Below are positions 45,314-47,576 of a stretch of DNA of 64,000 bases, one piece after another. The notes under the pieces are model-generated. The model did no database searches and had not been told where the DNA came from. It was given only the letters and a program-made list of their open reading frames with translations. Position 1 is the stretch's first letter. The number at the start of each line of letters is the position of its first letter. Origin of the DNA: a virus (taxonomy: Duplodnaviria; Heunggongvirae; Uroviricota; Caudoviricetes); the IMG/VR virus record IMGVR_UViG_3300020429_000539, positions 108,263-172,262 of that record; one strand, 5' to 3'. The position numbers and the translations under genes were made by a program.

Positions 45314-45589
45314 ATGAACGAGTCCAAGAGCAAATCAAAAAGGCTACCTGTATTCATCTCGGTTGCTGCCATGCTCCTGGCAGCGTGCTATCCCGCTTCA
45401 TTGATATTCGTGGCTTTCGTGTTTGGTGGACAGCAGGTTATCCTCTACGTTATTGCTTCTATTGTCTTTTTGATTGCTGGTTTTGTTTCGTTCATTGTCA
45501 TGGCCTTTGTTATTATGTTTCTTTGCATGGTTCTTGATAAAGAAGAGCCCAAATGGGTTGAGCAAATCATGCATCTGATTTTGTCATGA
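45314..45589 (+). CDS. small 3-TM membrane protein
   Basis: 'LPVFISVAAMLLAACYPASLIFVAFVFGG', 'ILYVIASIVFLIAGFVSFIVMAFVIMFLCMVL'. Confidence 0.55.
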   Translation: MNESKSKSKRLPVFISVAAMLLAACYPASLIFVAFVFGGQQVILYVIASIVFLIAGFVSFIVMAFVIMFLCMVLDKEEPKWVEQIMHLILS

Positions 45590-46227
45590 AAACAGCCAAA
45601 AAACAACCAGAGCAAAAAGCAATGGAGCGGCTTCTTAGGCGAGGCGGCAAGAACTGCTATCTCGATCTGCCGGCAATATTTAAGGACGACAAAGCAAACG
45701 GCGCAAGCGTTGACCTCCTCGACTTGCTCGCTGTGATTGATGCCCGCATTGCTCCTATTCAGAATGTTCAAGGCGTTGTCATCTTTGGTTCTACCATGAC
45801 AGCGCACATCGAATATGAAGAACGACTCGGATTGTTCAATCGCAAAAAGCGCGCAGAGAAACTGCATCAAGCAATAATCAACGATATCGATATCTTCGTA
45901 TTGCTTCAGCCTGGTACAGAGATTAAGAGACGCAAGGTTTATTCTGATGCGAGTTCATGGCACGCAACCTACGGCTACAGCGGTCCCTGGATTAGCCGAG
46001 AAGTTCGACAGGGCGCTCTTGATATCTTTGCGATGACAGCCACCGAGTTCAGCGAAAGACTCGAAGCAGGAGACTCAGAAGCACGAAGCATCCTAGACCA
46101 AGGAGCGCTTGTTCTTGGCAGTTTTCCTTTCGTGCTTCGCAGCAGTAGTAGAGTAGACTGGTCACGAAGAAATAATCCCAACCTTATCCCTCATAAAGAA
46201 AGAGTCATGAGGATTGGCGTTAGATGA
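45586..46227 (+). CDS. divergent Pol-beta-superfamily nucleotidyltransferase-like protein (paralog A)
   Basis: 'VVIFGSTMTAH' (hG[GS]) ... 'INDIDIFVLLQPG' (DxD on a beta-strand) match NTase-fold catalytic motifs, but the GS-to-DxD spacing is unusually long at about 31 aa. The C-terminal 'LVLGSFPFVLRSSSRVDWSRR' is shared with the neighbour. Confidence 0.45.
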   Translation: MKTAKKQPEQKAMERLLRRGGKNCYLDLPAIFKDDKANGASVDLLDLLAVIDARIAPIQNVQGVVIFGSTMTAHIEYEERLGLFNRKKRAEKLHQAIINDIDIFVLLQPGTEIKRRKVYSDASSWHATYGYSGPWISREVRQGALDIFAMTATEFSERLEAGDSEARSILDQGALVLGSFPFVLRSSSRVDWSRRNNPNLIPHKERVMRIGVR

Positions 46228-47072
46228 AAAGCAAGAAACCCGACCAATACGAAGAGGCTCTGACGAATCTTCGCGAAGGGCGGGTTCTTCATGCGCAGCT
46301 TCAGCTTCCTGTACCTGTCGCAGAAGACAGAGATATCGACAAGCCCGTGCCGCAAAGCAGGTCTAAGAAGCGCAAGACGCTTCAGCACTCTATCTCTCGC
46401 GAAGACCTGTGGGATGACTTCGAAGAGTTCTTTGACTCGGTTCGCACGAAAGATTATTCGCGATCCTCTCCATATGGAAGCCTCTCATCGCTCGGTCGTC
46501 GCACGCTGCACAGGATGCATGGAATAGCCTACCCAACCGTTGACTTCCTTGAACTCTTCGACTTCATTCAGAACAAGATTGCAAATCCGGAAGATGTTGT
46601 CGCGATTGTTCTCTTTGGCTCTTCTGTGACCTGCCATCTCGATGTTGTCTATAAGGAGGTTGGCTGGTTCCGCAAGCGCAAGAAGATTGTAGACTCGAAG
46701 CTTCGCTATATCAAAGAGTGTCGAGACATCGACATTCTCGTGCTGCTTCGCCGAGGCGCGAAGAAGAAATGCACGAAGATGGAGATGGACGCCGACGCCA
46801 TTCAAAAGAGCAGAGGCGGGTATGGCGAGATGAAGAGAACGACAACTGTCAAAGGCCTTATTGAGGTCTTCTGTCTTACACAAGACGAGTATGAAGAAAG
46901 CGTCAGGGCCGAGCATTGTGTGAGCGAACACATCGCGCAGTATGGCGTGCTTGTGGCAGGTTCGTTTCCTTATGAACTGCGAAGCAAATCTCGCATCGAG
47001 TGGGGAAGAAAAGGCCGCTTGAGATTCTACCCCGAGCATCGCGGCGTGAGAAGCATCAAGCACAACCGCTAA
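46224..47072 (+). CDS. divergent Pol-beta-superfamily nucleotidyltransferase-like protein (paralog B)
   Basis: 'IVLFGSSVTCH' ... 'CRDIDILVLLRRG' and C-terminal 'VLVAGSFPYELRSKSRIEWGRK'. ATGA-coupled to paralog A. Confidence 0.45.
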   Translation: MKSKKPDQYEEALTNLREGRVLHAQLQLPVPVAEDRDIDKPVPQSRSKKRKTLQHSISREDLWDDFEEFFDSVRTKDYSRSSPYGSLSSLGRRTLHRMHGIAYPTVDFLELFDFIQNKIANPEDVVAIVLFGSSVTCHLDVVYKEVGWFRKRKKIVDSKLRYIKECRDIDILVLLRRGAKKKCTKMEMDADAIQKSRGGYGEMKRTTTVKGLIEVFCLTQDEYEESVRAEHCVSEHIAQYGVLVAGSFPYELRSKSRIEWGRKGRLRFYPEHRGVRSIKHNR

Positions 47073-47118
47073 CGGGTGAAAGTCGAAGCTGCTATTATAC
47101 GCTTCGCAGGAGAATCAC

Positions 47119-47355
47119 ATGACAGCGTTCATCTTCGGTATCATTTCGATCATCTTCGCGCTGGTTATCGGCGCTGTAGGCGGCTTCATCCTCGCCATGT
47201 ATGTCATGGATGAGGCGGAAAAAGAGAAGAAGGCCGAGGGCGCTGAAGATGTTCTTGGCGACGACTGGAAGATTCGTAATCATTGCCGCGAGTGCAATGA
47301 TAAATGCACGGACAAATGCACTTGCTCTTGCCATGACGAAAGCGTTCAATCATGA
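47119..47355 (+). CDS. small single-TM protein with Cys-rich tail
   Basis: 'FIFGIISIIFALVIGAVGGFILAMYV' then 'CRECNDKCTDKCTCSCHDE'. Confidence 0.5.
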   Translation: MTAFIFGIISIIFALVIGAVGGFILAMYVMDEAEKEKKAEGAEDVLGDDWKIRNHCRECNDKCTDKCTCSCHDESVQS

Positions 47356-47576
47356 TTTTCATTGGGATGCTGATTGGCGGACTCTTTTTGGTGGGCCTTG
47401 GCTTTGCTCTCGGCTATGCGTTCTGTCACCACCAGATGACGGACATGCTCATCGACTCGTGCCGACAACACATCGAAGACATGAACAAATCGCTCAAGCT
47501 GGCGGACGAAGAACTCAAGCGTCCCGTGGTCGAAGTTGACCGAAGCGTAGACCTTGACCCTGTTGCCAGCAAATGA
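47352..47576 (+). CDS. small single-TM protein
   Basis: 'MIFIGMLIGGLFLVGLGFALGYAF'. ATGA coupling. Confidence 0.5.
   Translation: MIFIGMLIGGLFLVGLGFALGYAFCHHQMTDMLIDSCRQHIEDMNKSLKLADEELKRPVVEVDRSVDLDPVASK

What the first reader, a model, noticed from the sequence alone, without database searches (positions are those of the whole stretch)
45586..47576. Tandem pair of divergent nucleotidyltransferase-like paralogs followed by two small single-TM proteins
Both proteins keep an hG[GS] turn ('IFGSTMT', 'LFGSSVT') and an hhDIDIhVLL strand, as in Pol-beta-fold NTases (cGAS/DncV-like, MNT, OAS). However, the GS-to-DxD spacing is about 31-35 aa rather than the usual 10-15, which implies a large insertion in the catalytic hairpin. 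They also share a distinctive C-terminal 'GSFP(F/Y).LRS.SR(V/I)(D/E)W' motif. Two small TM proteins follow, one with a Cys-rich tail. An NTase next to a membrane effector is reminiscent of signalling-type defence (CBASS-like) or of phage anti-defence nucleotide modifiers. This architecture appears undescribed.
Basis: partly seen in the sequence, partly recalled or inferred. Interest (0 to 1): 0.65.

Follow-up and report, generated by a model that had tools for sequence, protein, structure and literature searches.

The report
Two phage nucleotidyltransferase genes, unnamed family
Two adjacent genes in a phage-like contig encode divergent members of a rare, unnamed family of small nucleotide-transferring enzymes with an extra basic hairpin beside the active site; their target is unknown, and nothing supports a CBASS-like signalling system.

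Summary
ORFs 45586-46227 (pA, 213 aa) and 46224-47072 (pB, 282 aa) are paralogues (33% identity, E=7e-28). Both keep FGS, DIDI and the C-terminal GSFP..LRS..W motif. Three small membrane-protein genes flank them.

A profile search of 1.84 billion representative proteins found only 42 relatives. They share invariant G, D and D, and near-invariant S and Y. All have a 24-38-residue insert between GS and DxD that is always net basic. No Pfam, PHROG, NCBIfam or PADLOC model reaches significance. tblastn with pA, pB and three other members found nothing in 50,697 GenBank phage records; pB also found nothing in PLSDB plasmids.

All eleven distinct gene contexts are phage-like. A membrane-protein neighbour occurs only in some lineages. 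pB is the orthologue of a single-copy gene in related phages; pA is an extra copy.

Verdict: this is a new phage-associated clade of minimal nucleotidyltransferases, probably active, with an unknown acceptor. The CBASS-like reading is not supported.

The parts
45314..45589 (+). TM91: 91-aa protein with a Lys-rich N-terminus and at least two hydrophobic segments; its stop overlaps the pA start (ATGA)
   Evidence: weak homologue at the same position in L001 (28% identity, E=9e-8); no significant family hit
45586..46227 (+). pA: 213-aa minimal Pol-beta-fold nucleotidyltransferase of the unnamed family
   Evidence: (AF2 pLDDT 93.6). The N-terminus MKTAKKQPEQKAMERL is conserved with pB and P0006, which supports the 45586 start.
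45787..45792 (+). pA G68-S69 (hG[GS] motif at the end of strand 61-67)
   Evidence: G in 41/41 and S in 40/41 family members; coordinates checked
45793..45882 (+). pA residues 70-99: family-specific insert between GS and DxD, modelled as a beta-hairpin (strands 74-80 and 88-98)
   Evidence: Insert length 24-38 aa in all 41 members; net charge +1 to +11 in 41/41; AF2 secondary structure (pLDDT about 69 at the tip)
45883..45891 (+). pA D100-I-D102 (catalytic DxD on strand 101-107)
   Evidence: Both Asp invariant, 41/41; aligns with DID of MNT 9xbd_E
45976..45978 (+). pA Y131 in the G-Y-x-G turn of the long hairpin 117-151
   Evidence: Tyr in 39/41 members; role unknown
46021..46023 (+). pA D146, candidate third metal ligand on strand 145-151 (LDIF)
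   Evidence: Column is D 25, H 14, E 2 of 41.
46224..47072 (+). pB: 282-aa paralogue with a charged insert of about 70 aa (residues ~32-100) in its N-terminal region; orthologue of the single-copy gene in related phages
   Evidence: GS at 46617-46622, DID at 46725-46733, E214 at 46863-46865, Y200 at 46821-46823. Weak PF18765 hit, E=0.016.
47119..47355 (+). tm1: 78-aa single-pass membrane protein with an acidic linker and a Cys-rich tail; preceded by AGGAG
   Evidence: The L001 counterpart keeps the TM segment and Cys-richness but not the Cys pattern.
47352..47576 (+). tm2: 74-aa single-pass membrane protein with a charged C-terminal tail; ATGA overlap with tm1
   Evidence: 58% identical counterpart in L001

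Best explanation
pA and pB are two divergent members of a small family of minimal DNA-polymerase-beta-superfamily nucleotidyltransferases. The family has no name and, so far, is seen only in phage-like contigs.

Architecture. Each protein carries the standard catalytic core: helix, strand, G-S turn, DxD strand and a further strand bearing D or E. Three family-specific additions surround it:
- an N-terminal helix plus a small sheet;
- a net-basic, often aromatic-containing beta-hairpin of 24-38 residues inserted between the G-S turn and the DxD strand;
- a long beta-hairpin tipped by a nearly invariant G-Y-x-G turn.

Proposed mechanism (inferred). The two or three carboxylates hold Mg2+. The G-S turn and the basic hairpin bind the NTP triphosphate and a negatively charged acceptor. 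The enzyme transfers an NMP to a hydroxyl group of a macromolecule. I rank the acceptors as follows: a nucleic-acid 3'-OH (RNA or DNA end) about 0.35, a protein Tyr/Ser/Thr about 0.3, other about 0.35.

Proposed role (inferred). The genes lie in a translationally coupled array of non-structural phage genes, so the likely role is host takeover, RNA repair or counter-defence during infection.

The pair. pB is the lineage's original gene. pA is an added, faster-evolving copy. The two may act on different targets or as a hetero-oligomer.

The flanking small membrane proteins are syntenic neighbours in this phage lineage. Nothing shows that they work with the enzymes.
For: Shown by tools:
- Paralogy, E=7e-28.
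- A coherent family of 42 representatives at E<=1e-3 among 1.84e9 proteins.
- G68, D100 and D102 invariant; S69 in 40/41, Y131 in 39/41, G173 in 40/41, G178 in 39/41.
- The spacer is 24-38 aa in 41/41 members and net basic in 41/41.
- The AF2 model has pLDDT 93.6 and pTM 0.89 with the 41-sequence alignment.
- The top Foldseek hits in PDB and BFVD are NTases.
- A profile-to-PDB alignment places the family's FGS and DID on the YGS and DID of MNT 9xbd_E.
- hhalign places helix-strand-GS on the same elements of ANT(3'')(9).
- 18/41 members give weak PF18765 hits and 9/41 give weak PF01909 hits.
- All eleven distinct loci are dense, co-directional arrays of ORFs, most without family matches, with scattered phage-typical domains.
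- pB clusters with the single-copy genes of the syntenic phages L004 and L008; pA does not.
- ATGA overlaps link the genes.

From the literature: the authors of PF18765 predicted NMP transfer to a protein substrate (PMC5512222). Large phages commonly carry NTases that restore RNA ends alongside RtcB-type ligases (PMC7824862). This contig encodes RtcB at 24682-25953.
Against: - No biochemical data exist for any member.
- The third metal-ligand position is His in 14/41 members. Either the assignment is wrong or part of the family uses a different geometry.
- I could not obtain model coordinates, so the spatial juxtaposition of S69, D100, D102 and D146 is inferred from the fold match and was not measured.
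- No conserved partner gene was found across the family, so there is no contextual clue to the acceptor.
- RtcB is 20 kb away and is not linked.
- The overall pI of members ranges from 5.5 to 9.7, so a general nucleic-acid-binding surface is not a family trait.
Confidence: 0.6

Rival explanations
1. CBASS-like or other second-messenger module. The NTase would make a nucleotide signal that opens or activates the adjacent small membrane proteins, either as phage-borne defence or as superinfection exclusion.
For: An NTase gene is flanked by three small membrane-protein genes with overlapping stop and start codons. A small membrane protein also follows the NTase gene in the diverged syntenic phages L004 and L008.
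Against: - pA and pB hit no PADLOC model, and only 1/41 members touches a cyclase model (E=0.032).
- At 213 aa, with only two short C-terminal helices, pA has no counterpart of the second, helical domain that I recall CD-NTases having (own knowledge).
- The membrane proteins are 74-91 aa with no match to any nucleotide-sensor domain.
- Their topology differs between lineages, and they are absent next to the NTase in L009, L011, L014 and L016.
- About 20% of ORFs in this contig have a strong hydrophobic segment.
Confidence: 0.04
2. Hailong-like chemistry. Like HalB, the enzyme would make template-independent, possibly tyrosine-primed oligo-deoxynucleotides. These could gate a membrane protein, or act as a phage decoy that keeps a host HalA-type channel closed.
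For: - HalB and pA are similar in size, 217 and 213 aa.
- A Tyr is nearly invariant, 39/41.
- A basic hairpin sits beside the active site.
- Membrane-protein genes are adjacent.
- HalB primes on a tyrosine and pairs with a membrane effector (PMC13434031).
Against: - The scores are no better than for other NTases (TM-score 0.28; 80 residues aligned).
- The family profile finds no HalB chain in the PDB even at E<=10.
- HalB's catalytic Asp residues are D21/D23 (PDB entry titles), against D100/D102 here, so the domain order around the core differs.
- HalA is described as a tetrameric channel with a cytoplasmic crown, unlike these 74-91-aa single- or double-pass proteins.
- Y131 lies at the tip of a long hairpin, about 15 residues along the strand from D146. 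It is unlikely to reach its own active site (inference).
Confidence: 0.07
3. MNT-type protein AMPylase. The enzymes would nucleotidylylate a protein, for example acting as antitoxin mimics that switch off host HEPN ribonuclease toxins or other defence proteins.
For: - The only PDB sequence-profile hit with motif-level agreement is MNT 9xbd_E.
- The nearest Pfam model, PF18765, was predicted to NMPylate proteins.
Against: - No HEPN gene lies nearby.
- NCBIfam MntA matches only 1/41 members, at E=0.081.
- The proteins are about twice the size of MNTs, and half the chain is family-specific.
- The basic insert points towards a polyanionic ligand.
Confidence: 0.15
4. RNA-end repair or tailing enzyme. 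It would work with the phage's RtcB ligase to restore tRNA or mRNA 3' ends cut by host ribonucleases, functionally like RlaP or a CCA-adding enzyme.
For: - RtcB is in the same contig.
- The homologue P0033 lies 2.4 kb from Ro60/TROVE and methyltransferase genes.
- P0035 lies next to a phage EF-Tu gene.
- The insert is basic, and pA and pB have pI 9.4-9.6.
- Large phages often carry such NTases (PMC7824862).
Against: - No member hits any Pfam NTase model other than PF18765 and PF01909 at E<=0.1, so nothing resembling a RlaP model matched.
- RtcB is 20 kb away.
- No RNA ligase lies within the flanks of the other ten loci.
Confidence: 0.15
5. Pseudoenzymes or purely structural proteins that kept the fold but lost catalysis.
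For: The third acidic position is His in 14/41 members. The long insert disrupts the canonical GS-DxD hairpin. No function is known.
Against: G, D and D are invariant and S nearly so across sequences only 17-34% identical to pA outside its close orthologue. That pattern is typical of selection on catalysis.
Confidence: 0.05

Closest known systems
Minimal nucleotidyltransferases (MNT; MntA antitoxins of HEPN-MNT type VII toxin-antitoxin systems), e.g. PDB 8xeh_E, 9xbd_E, 5yep_A
   Same: Same core fold. The G-S turn and DxD strand align at motif level. This group gives the lowest rmsd (3.1 A over 87 residues).
   Different: - MNTs are about 100-140 aa, with a much shorter GS-DxD gap (about 9 residues in the aligned 9xbd_E stretch and in ANT(3'')(9)). 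Here the proteins are 180-340 aa, with 24-38 residues in a basic hairpin.
- This family adds an N-terminal module and a long G-Y-x-G hairpin.
- There is no HEPN partner.
- Neither the NCBIfam MntA model nor the Pfam models reach threshold.
Pfam PF18765 'Polbeta' (minimal NTase of polyvalent proteins and solo genes of mobile elements; Iyer et al. 2017, PMC5512222)
   Same: It is the best sequence-model match: 18/41 members, best E=7.9e-5, pB E=0.016. It also occurs in mobile elements and also lacks a characterised substrate.
   Different: - All matches fall below the gathering score (pB 15.8 against 26.9 bits), and pA does not match at all.
- PF18765 proteins are described as four strands and three helices without the insert, and occur mainly in Firmicute conjugative elements fused to ArdC-N.
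Hailong HalB (PDB 9dbh, 9dbi, 9dbj)
   Different: - No sequence-profile similarity.
- The catalytic Asp pair is at 21/23 in HalB, against 100/102 here.
- HalB is a bacterial defence protein paired with a large channel, HalA. Here the genes are in phage and sit next to tiny membrane proteins.
Aminoglycoside/lincosamide nucleotidyltransferases (ANT(4'), KNTase, ANT(3'')(9), LinB) and the uncharacterised 3c18
   Different: These are longer chains, about 250-290 aa. From what I recall of their structures, they have a C-terminal helical domain that forms the drug pocket. pA has only two short helices after the core. NCBIfam ANT_9 matches 1/41 members, at E=0.05.
CD-NTases of CBASS (CdnB, CdnD, CdnE, CdnG)
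   Same: They share the Pol-beta superfamily core with GS and DxD.

Membership tests
[quoted passage not shown] | hG[GS] turn after the first core strand | tested here: met
   FGS; G in 41/41, S in 40/41, F in 38/41. It lies at the end of strand 61-67.
[quoted passage not shown] | [DE]h[DE]h on the next core strand | tested here: met
   D100 and D102 in 41/41, on strand 101-107. They align with DID of MNT 9xbd_E.
[quoted passage not shown] | Third carboxylate on a neighbouring strand, close to the DxD pair | tested here: inconclusive
   The candidate column (pA D146, pB E214) is D 25, E 2, H 14 of 41.
[quoted passage not shown] | Alpha-beta core fold superposable on solved NTases | tested here: met
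[quoted passage not shown] | Short (about 9-15 residue) helical link between GS and DxD | tested here: not met
   The link is 24-38 residues in all 41 members and is modelled as a short helix plus a beta-hairpin.
Pfam PF18765 Polbeta / PF01909 NTP_transf_2 | Score at or above the curated gathering threshold | tested here: not met
   pB scores 15.8 bits against a cutoff of 26.9, and pA has no hit. The best E among 41 members is 7.9e-5 for PF18765 and 1.5e-3 for PF01909.
MNT / MntA antitoxin (type VII TA) | Adjacent HEPN toxin gene | tested here: not met
   No HEPN match in any of the eight to ten neighbouring products. None is recorded in the other loci.
MNT / MntA antitoxin (type VII TA) | Match to the NCBIfam MntA_antitoxin model | tested here: not met
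   1/41 members, at E=0.081; pA and pB have no hit.
CD-NTase (CBASS) | Match to CD-NTase/cyclase models and a closest structural match to CD-NTases | tested here: not met
CD-NTase (CBASS) | Adjacent effector with a nucleotide-sensing domain | tested here: not met
   The neighbours are 74-91-aa membrane proteins with no significant Pfam, PADLOC or NCBIfam match.
Hailong HalB | Detectable homology to HalB beyond the generic NTase core | tested here: inconclusive
Hailong HalB | Partner HalA: a tetrameric channel with a cytoplasmic crown domain | tested here: inconclusive
   No HalA model or sequence was available to search with. The neighbours here are only 74-91 aa with one or two hydrophobic segments, whereas HalA is described as a larger multi-domain channel.
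RlaP (RNA-ligase-associated Pol-beta NTase) | Match to the RlaP model and adjacency to an RNA ligase gene | tested here: not met
   At E<=0.1 the only NTase models hit by any of the 41 members are PF18765 and PF01909. RtcB is 20 kb upstream, and no ligase lies in the flanks of the other loci.

The most novel reading that the evidence does not exclude
The family is a phage counterpart of HalB-type enzymes. It would be a template-independent polymerase, possibly primed in trans on the conserved G-Y-x-G tyrosine, whose basic hairpin holds the growing chain. The phage would use it to make oligonucleotides that either gate its own small membrane proteins or act as decoys that keep host 'guard' channels of the Hailong kind closed.
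Probability: 0.06. Interest if true: 0.8.

Novelty: new variant of a known kind. Interest (0 to 1): 0.4.

Why it matters
Pol-beta-fold nucleotidyltransferases recur in phage-host conflict as cGAS-like signalling enzymes, MNT antitoxins, MenT and AbiEii toxins, HalB and RNA-repair enzymes.

This work defines a compact clade found so far only in uncultured, phage-like sequences. It has intact catalytic residues and a conserved basic hairpin inserted next to the active site. There is now a high-confidence structural model and a clear list of residues to mutate, so it is a well-defined candidate for a new phage activity against a host macromolecule.

The practical value is modest until an acceptor is identified. 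The family is rare: 42 clusters at 50% identity among 1.84 billion. It is also absent from the cultured-phage records searched, so experiments would need synthetic genes.

Tried and rejected
- AF2 with only the five close sequences gave an unusable model (pLDDT 52). The 41-sequence alignment was needed.
- The afdb50 fold library was not available, so no comparison with the AlphaFold database was made.
- Model coordinates are not exposed to scripts, so I could not measure distances between catalytic residues.
- The original Hailong paper is not held. I used a review's summary instead.
With pB or alignment A2 it found no relative in IMG/VR or GTDB genomes. These scans depend on exact peptide patterns and are weak negatives.
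- tblastn of pA, pB, P0012, P0020 and P0033 against GenBank phages, and of pB against PLSDB plasmids, found nothing.
- blastn of the 6-kb region against phages found nothing.
- The word-indexed protein search found only 4, 2 and 6 proteins. The exhaustive HMM search was essential.
- The upstream genes 40187-45280 share a C-terminal motif by eye (G.EVYMP / G.DVFYIP). I suspected a paralogous family, but BLASTP gives E>=0.078, so this is not supported.
- I tested whether the gene upstream of the L004 homologue is a second NTase copy. It is not. The tandem pair is confined to the window's own lineage.
- Rfam, tRNA, tandem-repeat and promoter/terminator scans added nothing for this locus.
- hhalign against ANT(3'')(9) aligned only the helix-strand-GS segment, with low probability.
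Full report
**Observation**

pA and pB are true paralogues. BLASTP gives 33% identity over 175 residues, E=7e-28.

The quoted motifs are present:
- pA has IFGSTMT (G68-S69) and DIDIFVLL (D100, D102), with 30 residues between Ser and Asp.
- pB has LFGSSVT (G132-S133) and DIDILVLL (D168, D170), with 34 residues between.
- Both end in GSFP[FY].LRS.SR[VI][DE]W.

tm1 and tm2 each have one N-terminal hydrophobic segment. tm1 has a Cys-rich tail.

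The TM91/pA, pA/pB and tm1/tm2 junctions are all ATGA overlaps. A 46-nt spacer containing AGGAG precedes tm1.

**The family**

Word-indexed searches found only near-identical proteins: four for pB and two for pA. An exhaustive HMM search with a core alignment of the two paralogue types, run against 1.84 billion representative proteins, found 42 proteins at E<=1e-3 and 14 at E<=1e-10.

Forty-one aligned members (146-339 aa) show these features:
- G68, D100 and D102 are invariant.
- F67 (38/41), S69 (40/41), Y131 (39/41), G173 (40/41) and G178 (39/41) are nearly invariant.
- The long spacer is universal, with 24-38 residues between Ser and the first Asp in all 41 members.
- The spacer is net positively charged in 41/41 members (+1 to +11), even in proteins that are acidic overall.
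- The column of the presumed third metal ligand (pA D146, pB E214) is D 25, E 2 and H 14.

**No curated family covers these proteins**

- Pfam: pB scores 15.8 bits against PF18765 Polbeta (cutoff 26.9) and pA has no hit.
- Across the family, 18/41 members touch PF18765 (best E=7.9e-5) and 9/41 touch PF01909.
- PHROGs has no family for pA or pB and only isolated single-member hits.
- NCBIfam gives one ANT(9) hit and one MntA hit, at E=0.05-0.08.
- PADLOC gives nothing for pA or pB, and 7/41 members hit candidate PDC-S09 weakly.
- tblastn with five members finds nothing in 50,697 GenBank phage records, and pB finds nothing in PLSDB plasmids.

**Fold**

With five sequences AlphaFold2 failed (pLDDT 52). 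With the 41-sequence alignment the pA model reached pLDDT 93.6 and pTM 0.89.

The order of elements in the model is:
- helix 8-18;
- a small sheet, 25-43;
- helix 44-55;
- strand 61-67, ending in G-S;
- a short helix, 68-72;
- an inserted hairpin, 74-80 and 88-98;
- strand 101-107, carrying DID;
- a long hairpin, 117-130 and 133-151, with Y131 at its turn and D146 near its end;
- helices 152-160 and 164-172;
- strand 174-178.

Fold comparisons:
- The top Foldseek hits in the PDB are HalB chains (E about 1e-2, TM-score 0.28).
- The top Foldseek hits in BFVD are viral proteins annotated as nucleotidyltransferases.

Motif equivalence is supported in two ways. The family profile aligns its FGS and DID to the YGS and DID of MNT 9xbd_E.

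Only 80-114 of 213 residues superpose on any solved NTase, so about half the protein is family-specific. I could not obtain coordinates. The juxtaposition of the catalytic residues is therefore inferred from the fold match and was not measured.

**Genomic setting**

The window looks like part of a large phage, although no capsid, portal or terminase gene was identified. From about 8 to 55 kb it is a co-directional array of ORFs, many without family matches. Recognisable genes include:
- a glutamine-synthetase-like gene, a trypsin-like protease, and a MoxR ATPase with a VWA/metallopeptidase partner;
- Dam methylase and a PP-loop ATPase;
- RtcB, whose best tblastn hits are the large phages phiRSL1, pf16 and PHB04 at about 38% identity;
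- a sigma-70-like factor and an SPFH protein.

Neither tRNA genes nor Rfam matches were found.

The same TM91-pA-pB-tm1-tm2 block, in full synteny, occurs in a relative that is 61-77% identical (L001-L003). Two more diverged phage contigs of about 70 kb (L004, L008) keep the upstream DUF1444-like gene and other neighbours. They carry only one NTase, of the long pB type.

In a rough neighbour-joining tree pB groups with these single-copy genes and pA does not. pB is therefore the lineage's original gene, and pA is an added, faster-evolving copy: 61% identity between the two sister phages, against 76-77% for pB.

The remaining loci (L006, L007, L009, L011, L012, L014, L016, L017) are also dense arrays of small ORFs, most without family matches, with scattered phage-typical domains such as GP88, PhageMetallopep, ART-PolyVal and HNH. 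L006 also has a porin gene and an AAA/nSTAND3 gene and may be chromosomal.

**The membrane-protein neighbours**

A small membrane protein follows the NTase gene in the window lineage, in L004 and in L008. These proteins differ in size and topology, and L008's is C-terminally anchored. No such neighbour is present in L009, L011, L014 or L016.

In this window roughly 20% of the + strand ORFs have a strong hydrophobic segment, and such genes cluster at 33.5-36 kb and 50.4-52.4 kb.

None of the three proteins matches a sensor or effector family. The adjacency is real, but it is not evidence of a functional pair.

**Mechanism**

What is shown: the fold, the conserved catalytic motifs, the universal basic insert, the conserved Tyr, the phage-like context and the translational coupling.

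What is inferred: the proteins are active Mg2+-dependent NMP transferases. The invariant G-S, D and D in sequences only 17-34% identical to pA argue against pseudoenzymes. The basic hairpin beside the G-S turn probably helps bind the triphosphate and a negatively charged acceptor.

I rank a nucleic-acid 3'-OH slightly above a protein hydroxyl as the acceptor.
- For a nucleic acid: the basic insert; pA and pB have pI 9.4-9.6; HalB is a top structural hit; RNA-repair or translation genes occur in the same genomes (RtcB here, Ro60 2.4 kb from P0033, EF-Tu next to P0035); and large phages often carry RNA-end-restoring NTases (PMC7824862).
- For a protein: MNT gives the tightest superposition, and PF18765 is predicted to NMPylate proteins (PMC5512222).

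No conserved partner gene emerged that could settle this.

**Comparison with known systems**

This is a member of the Pol-beta NTase superfamily. It fails the membership tests for every named family considered:
- MNT: no HEPN partner, twice the size, models below threshold.
- ANT/KNTase: much shorter than the 250-290-aa ANT chains, with only two short helices after the core.
- CD-NTase: weak fold match and no PADLOC match.
- RlaP: no model match and not linked to a ligase.
- HalB: no sequence similarity, catalytic Asp residues at 21/23 rather than 100/102, and no HalA-like partner.

It is best described as a new phage-associated clade, a new variant of a known kind.

**Verdict**

The NTase assignment and the 'long spacer' are supported and extend to a whole family. 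The CBASS-like signalling interpretation is not supported.

Interest is moderate. This is a cleanly defined, structurally modelled orphan enzyme family from phage-like contigs, with intact catalytic residues, an unusual insert and an unknown substrate. It is rare, and there is no functional handle yet.

The most novel reading still open is HalB-like template-independent synthesis, used to gate membrane proteins or to decoy host guard channels. I give it about 6%.

Noticed in passing
window 6949-8217 (+): The 422-aa product matches Pfam PF01630 Glyco_hydro_56 with E=1.3e-20. To my knowledge this family is the animal/venom-type hyaluronidase. That would be unusual in a phage-like bacterial contig.
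   Followed up: no
window 47802-48551 (+); L011 5695-5976: The central domain of this 249-aa zinc-ribbon protein (residues 66-147, motif LVYGTHxGDL) recurs as the 93-aa ORF directly upstream of the NTase homologue in the distant locus L011. tblastn gives E=6e-6 and jackhmmer gives 1.8e-28. It was not found in the other loci. It could be a linked gene, or the repeat could be coincidence.
   Followed up: partly
window 9349-10146 and 23221-24075 (+): Two paralogous DUF6065 proteins (E=1.4e-68 and 1.6e-16) lie 13 kb apart in the same contig.
   Followed up: no
window 8290-14163 and 18979-27003 (+): A set of auxiliary genes is present: glutamine-synthetase-like, trypsin-like protease, MoxR AAA with a DUF2201_N/VWA partner, Dam methylase, PP-loop ATPase, RtcB ligase (about 38% identical to phiRSL1, pf16 and PHB04) and a sigma-70-like factor.
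   Followed up: partly
window 33500-36000 (+): A strongly T-rich stretch (AT skew down to -0.49) corresponds to a cluster of at least five membrane-protein genes just downstream of an SPFH/Band-7 gene at 31184-32857.
   Followed up: partly
window 55200-64000: G+C rises from about 0.47-0.53 to 0.59-0.62. Long ORFs appear on both strands, as is typical of high-GC DNA. Recognisable genes are Fic on the - strand (55222-55932), an AAA_25 ATPase (57148-58551) and a HATPase_c_3 protein (61204-62778). This could be a different module, a host junction or an assembly chimera.
   Followed up: partly
L017 5076-9726; L014 8001-10012: The NTase homologue P0033 overlaps the stop of a gene for a membrane-anchored protein with a weak Prok-E2_D match, and lies 2.4 kb from a Ro60/TROVE-vWA gene and a methyltransferase gene. 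The homologue P0035 sits immediately upstream of a phage-encoded EF-Tu gene on a 145-kb contig.
   Followed up: no
window 47075-47100: A 6-bp inverted repeat (CGAAGC...GCTTCG) lies in the 46-nt spacer between pB and tm1, just upstream of the AGGAG ribosome-binding site. I did not test it for conservation.
   Followed up: no
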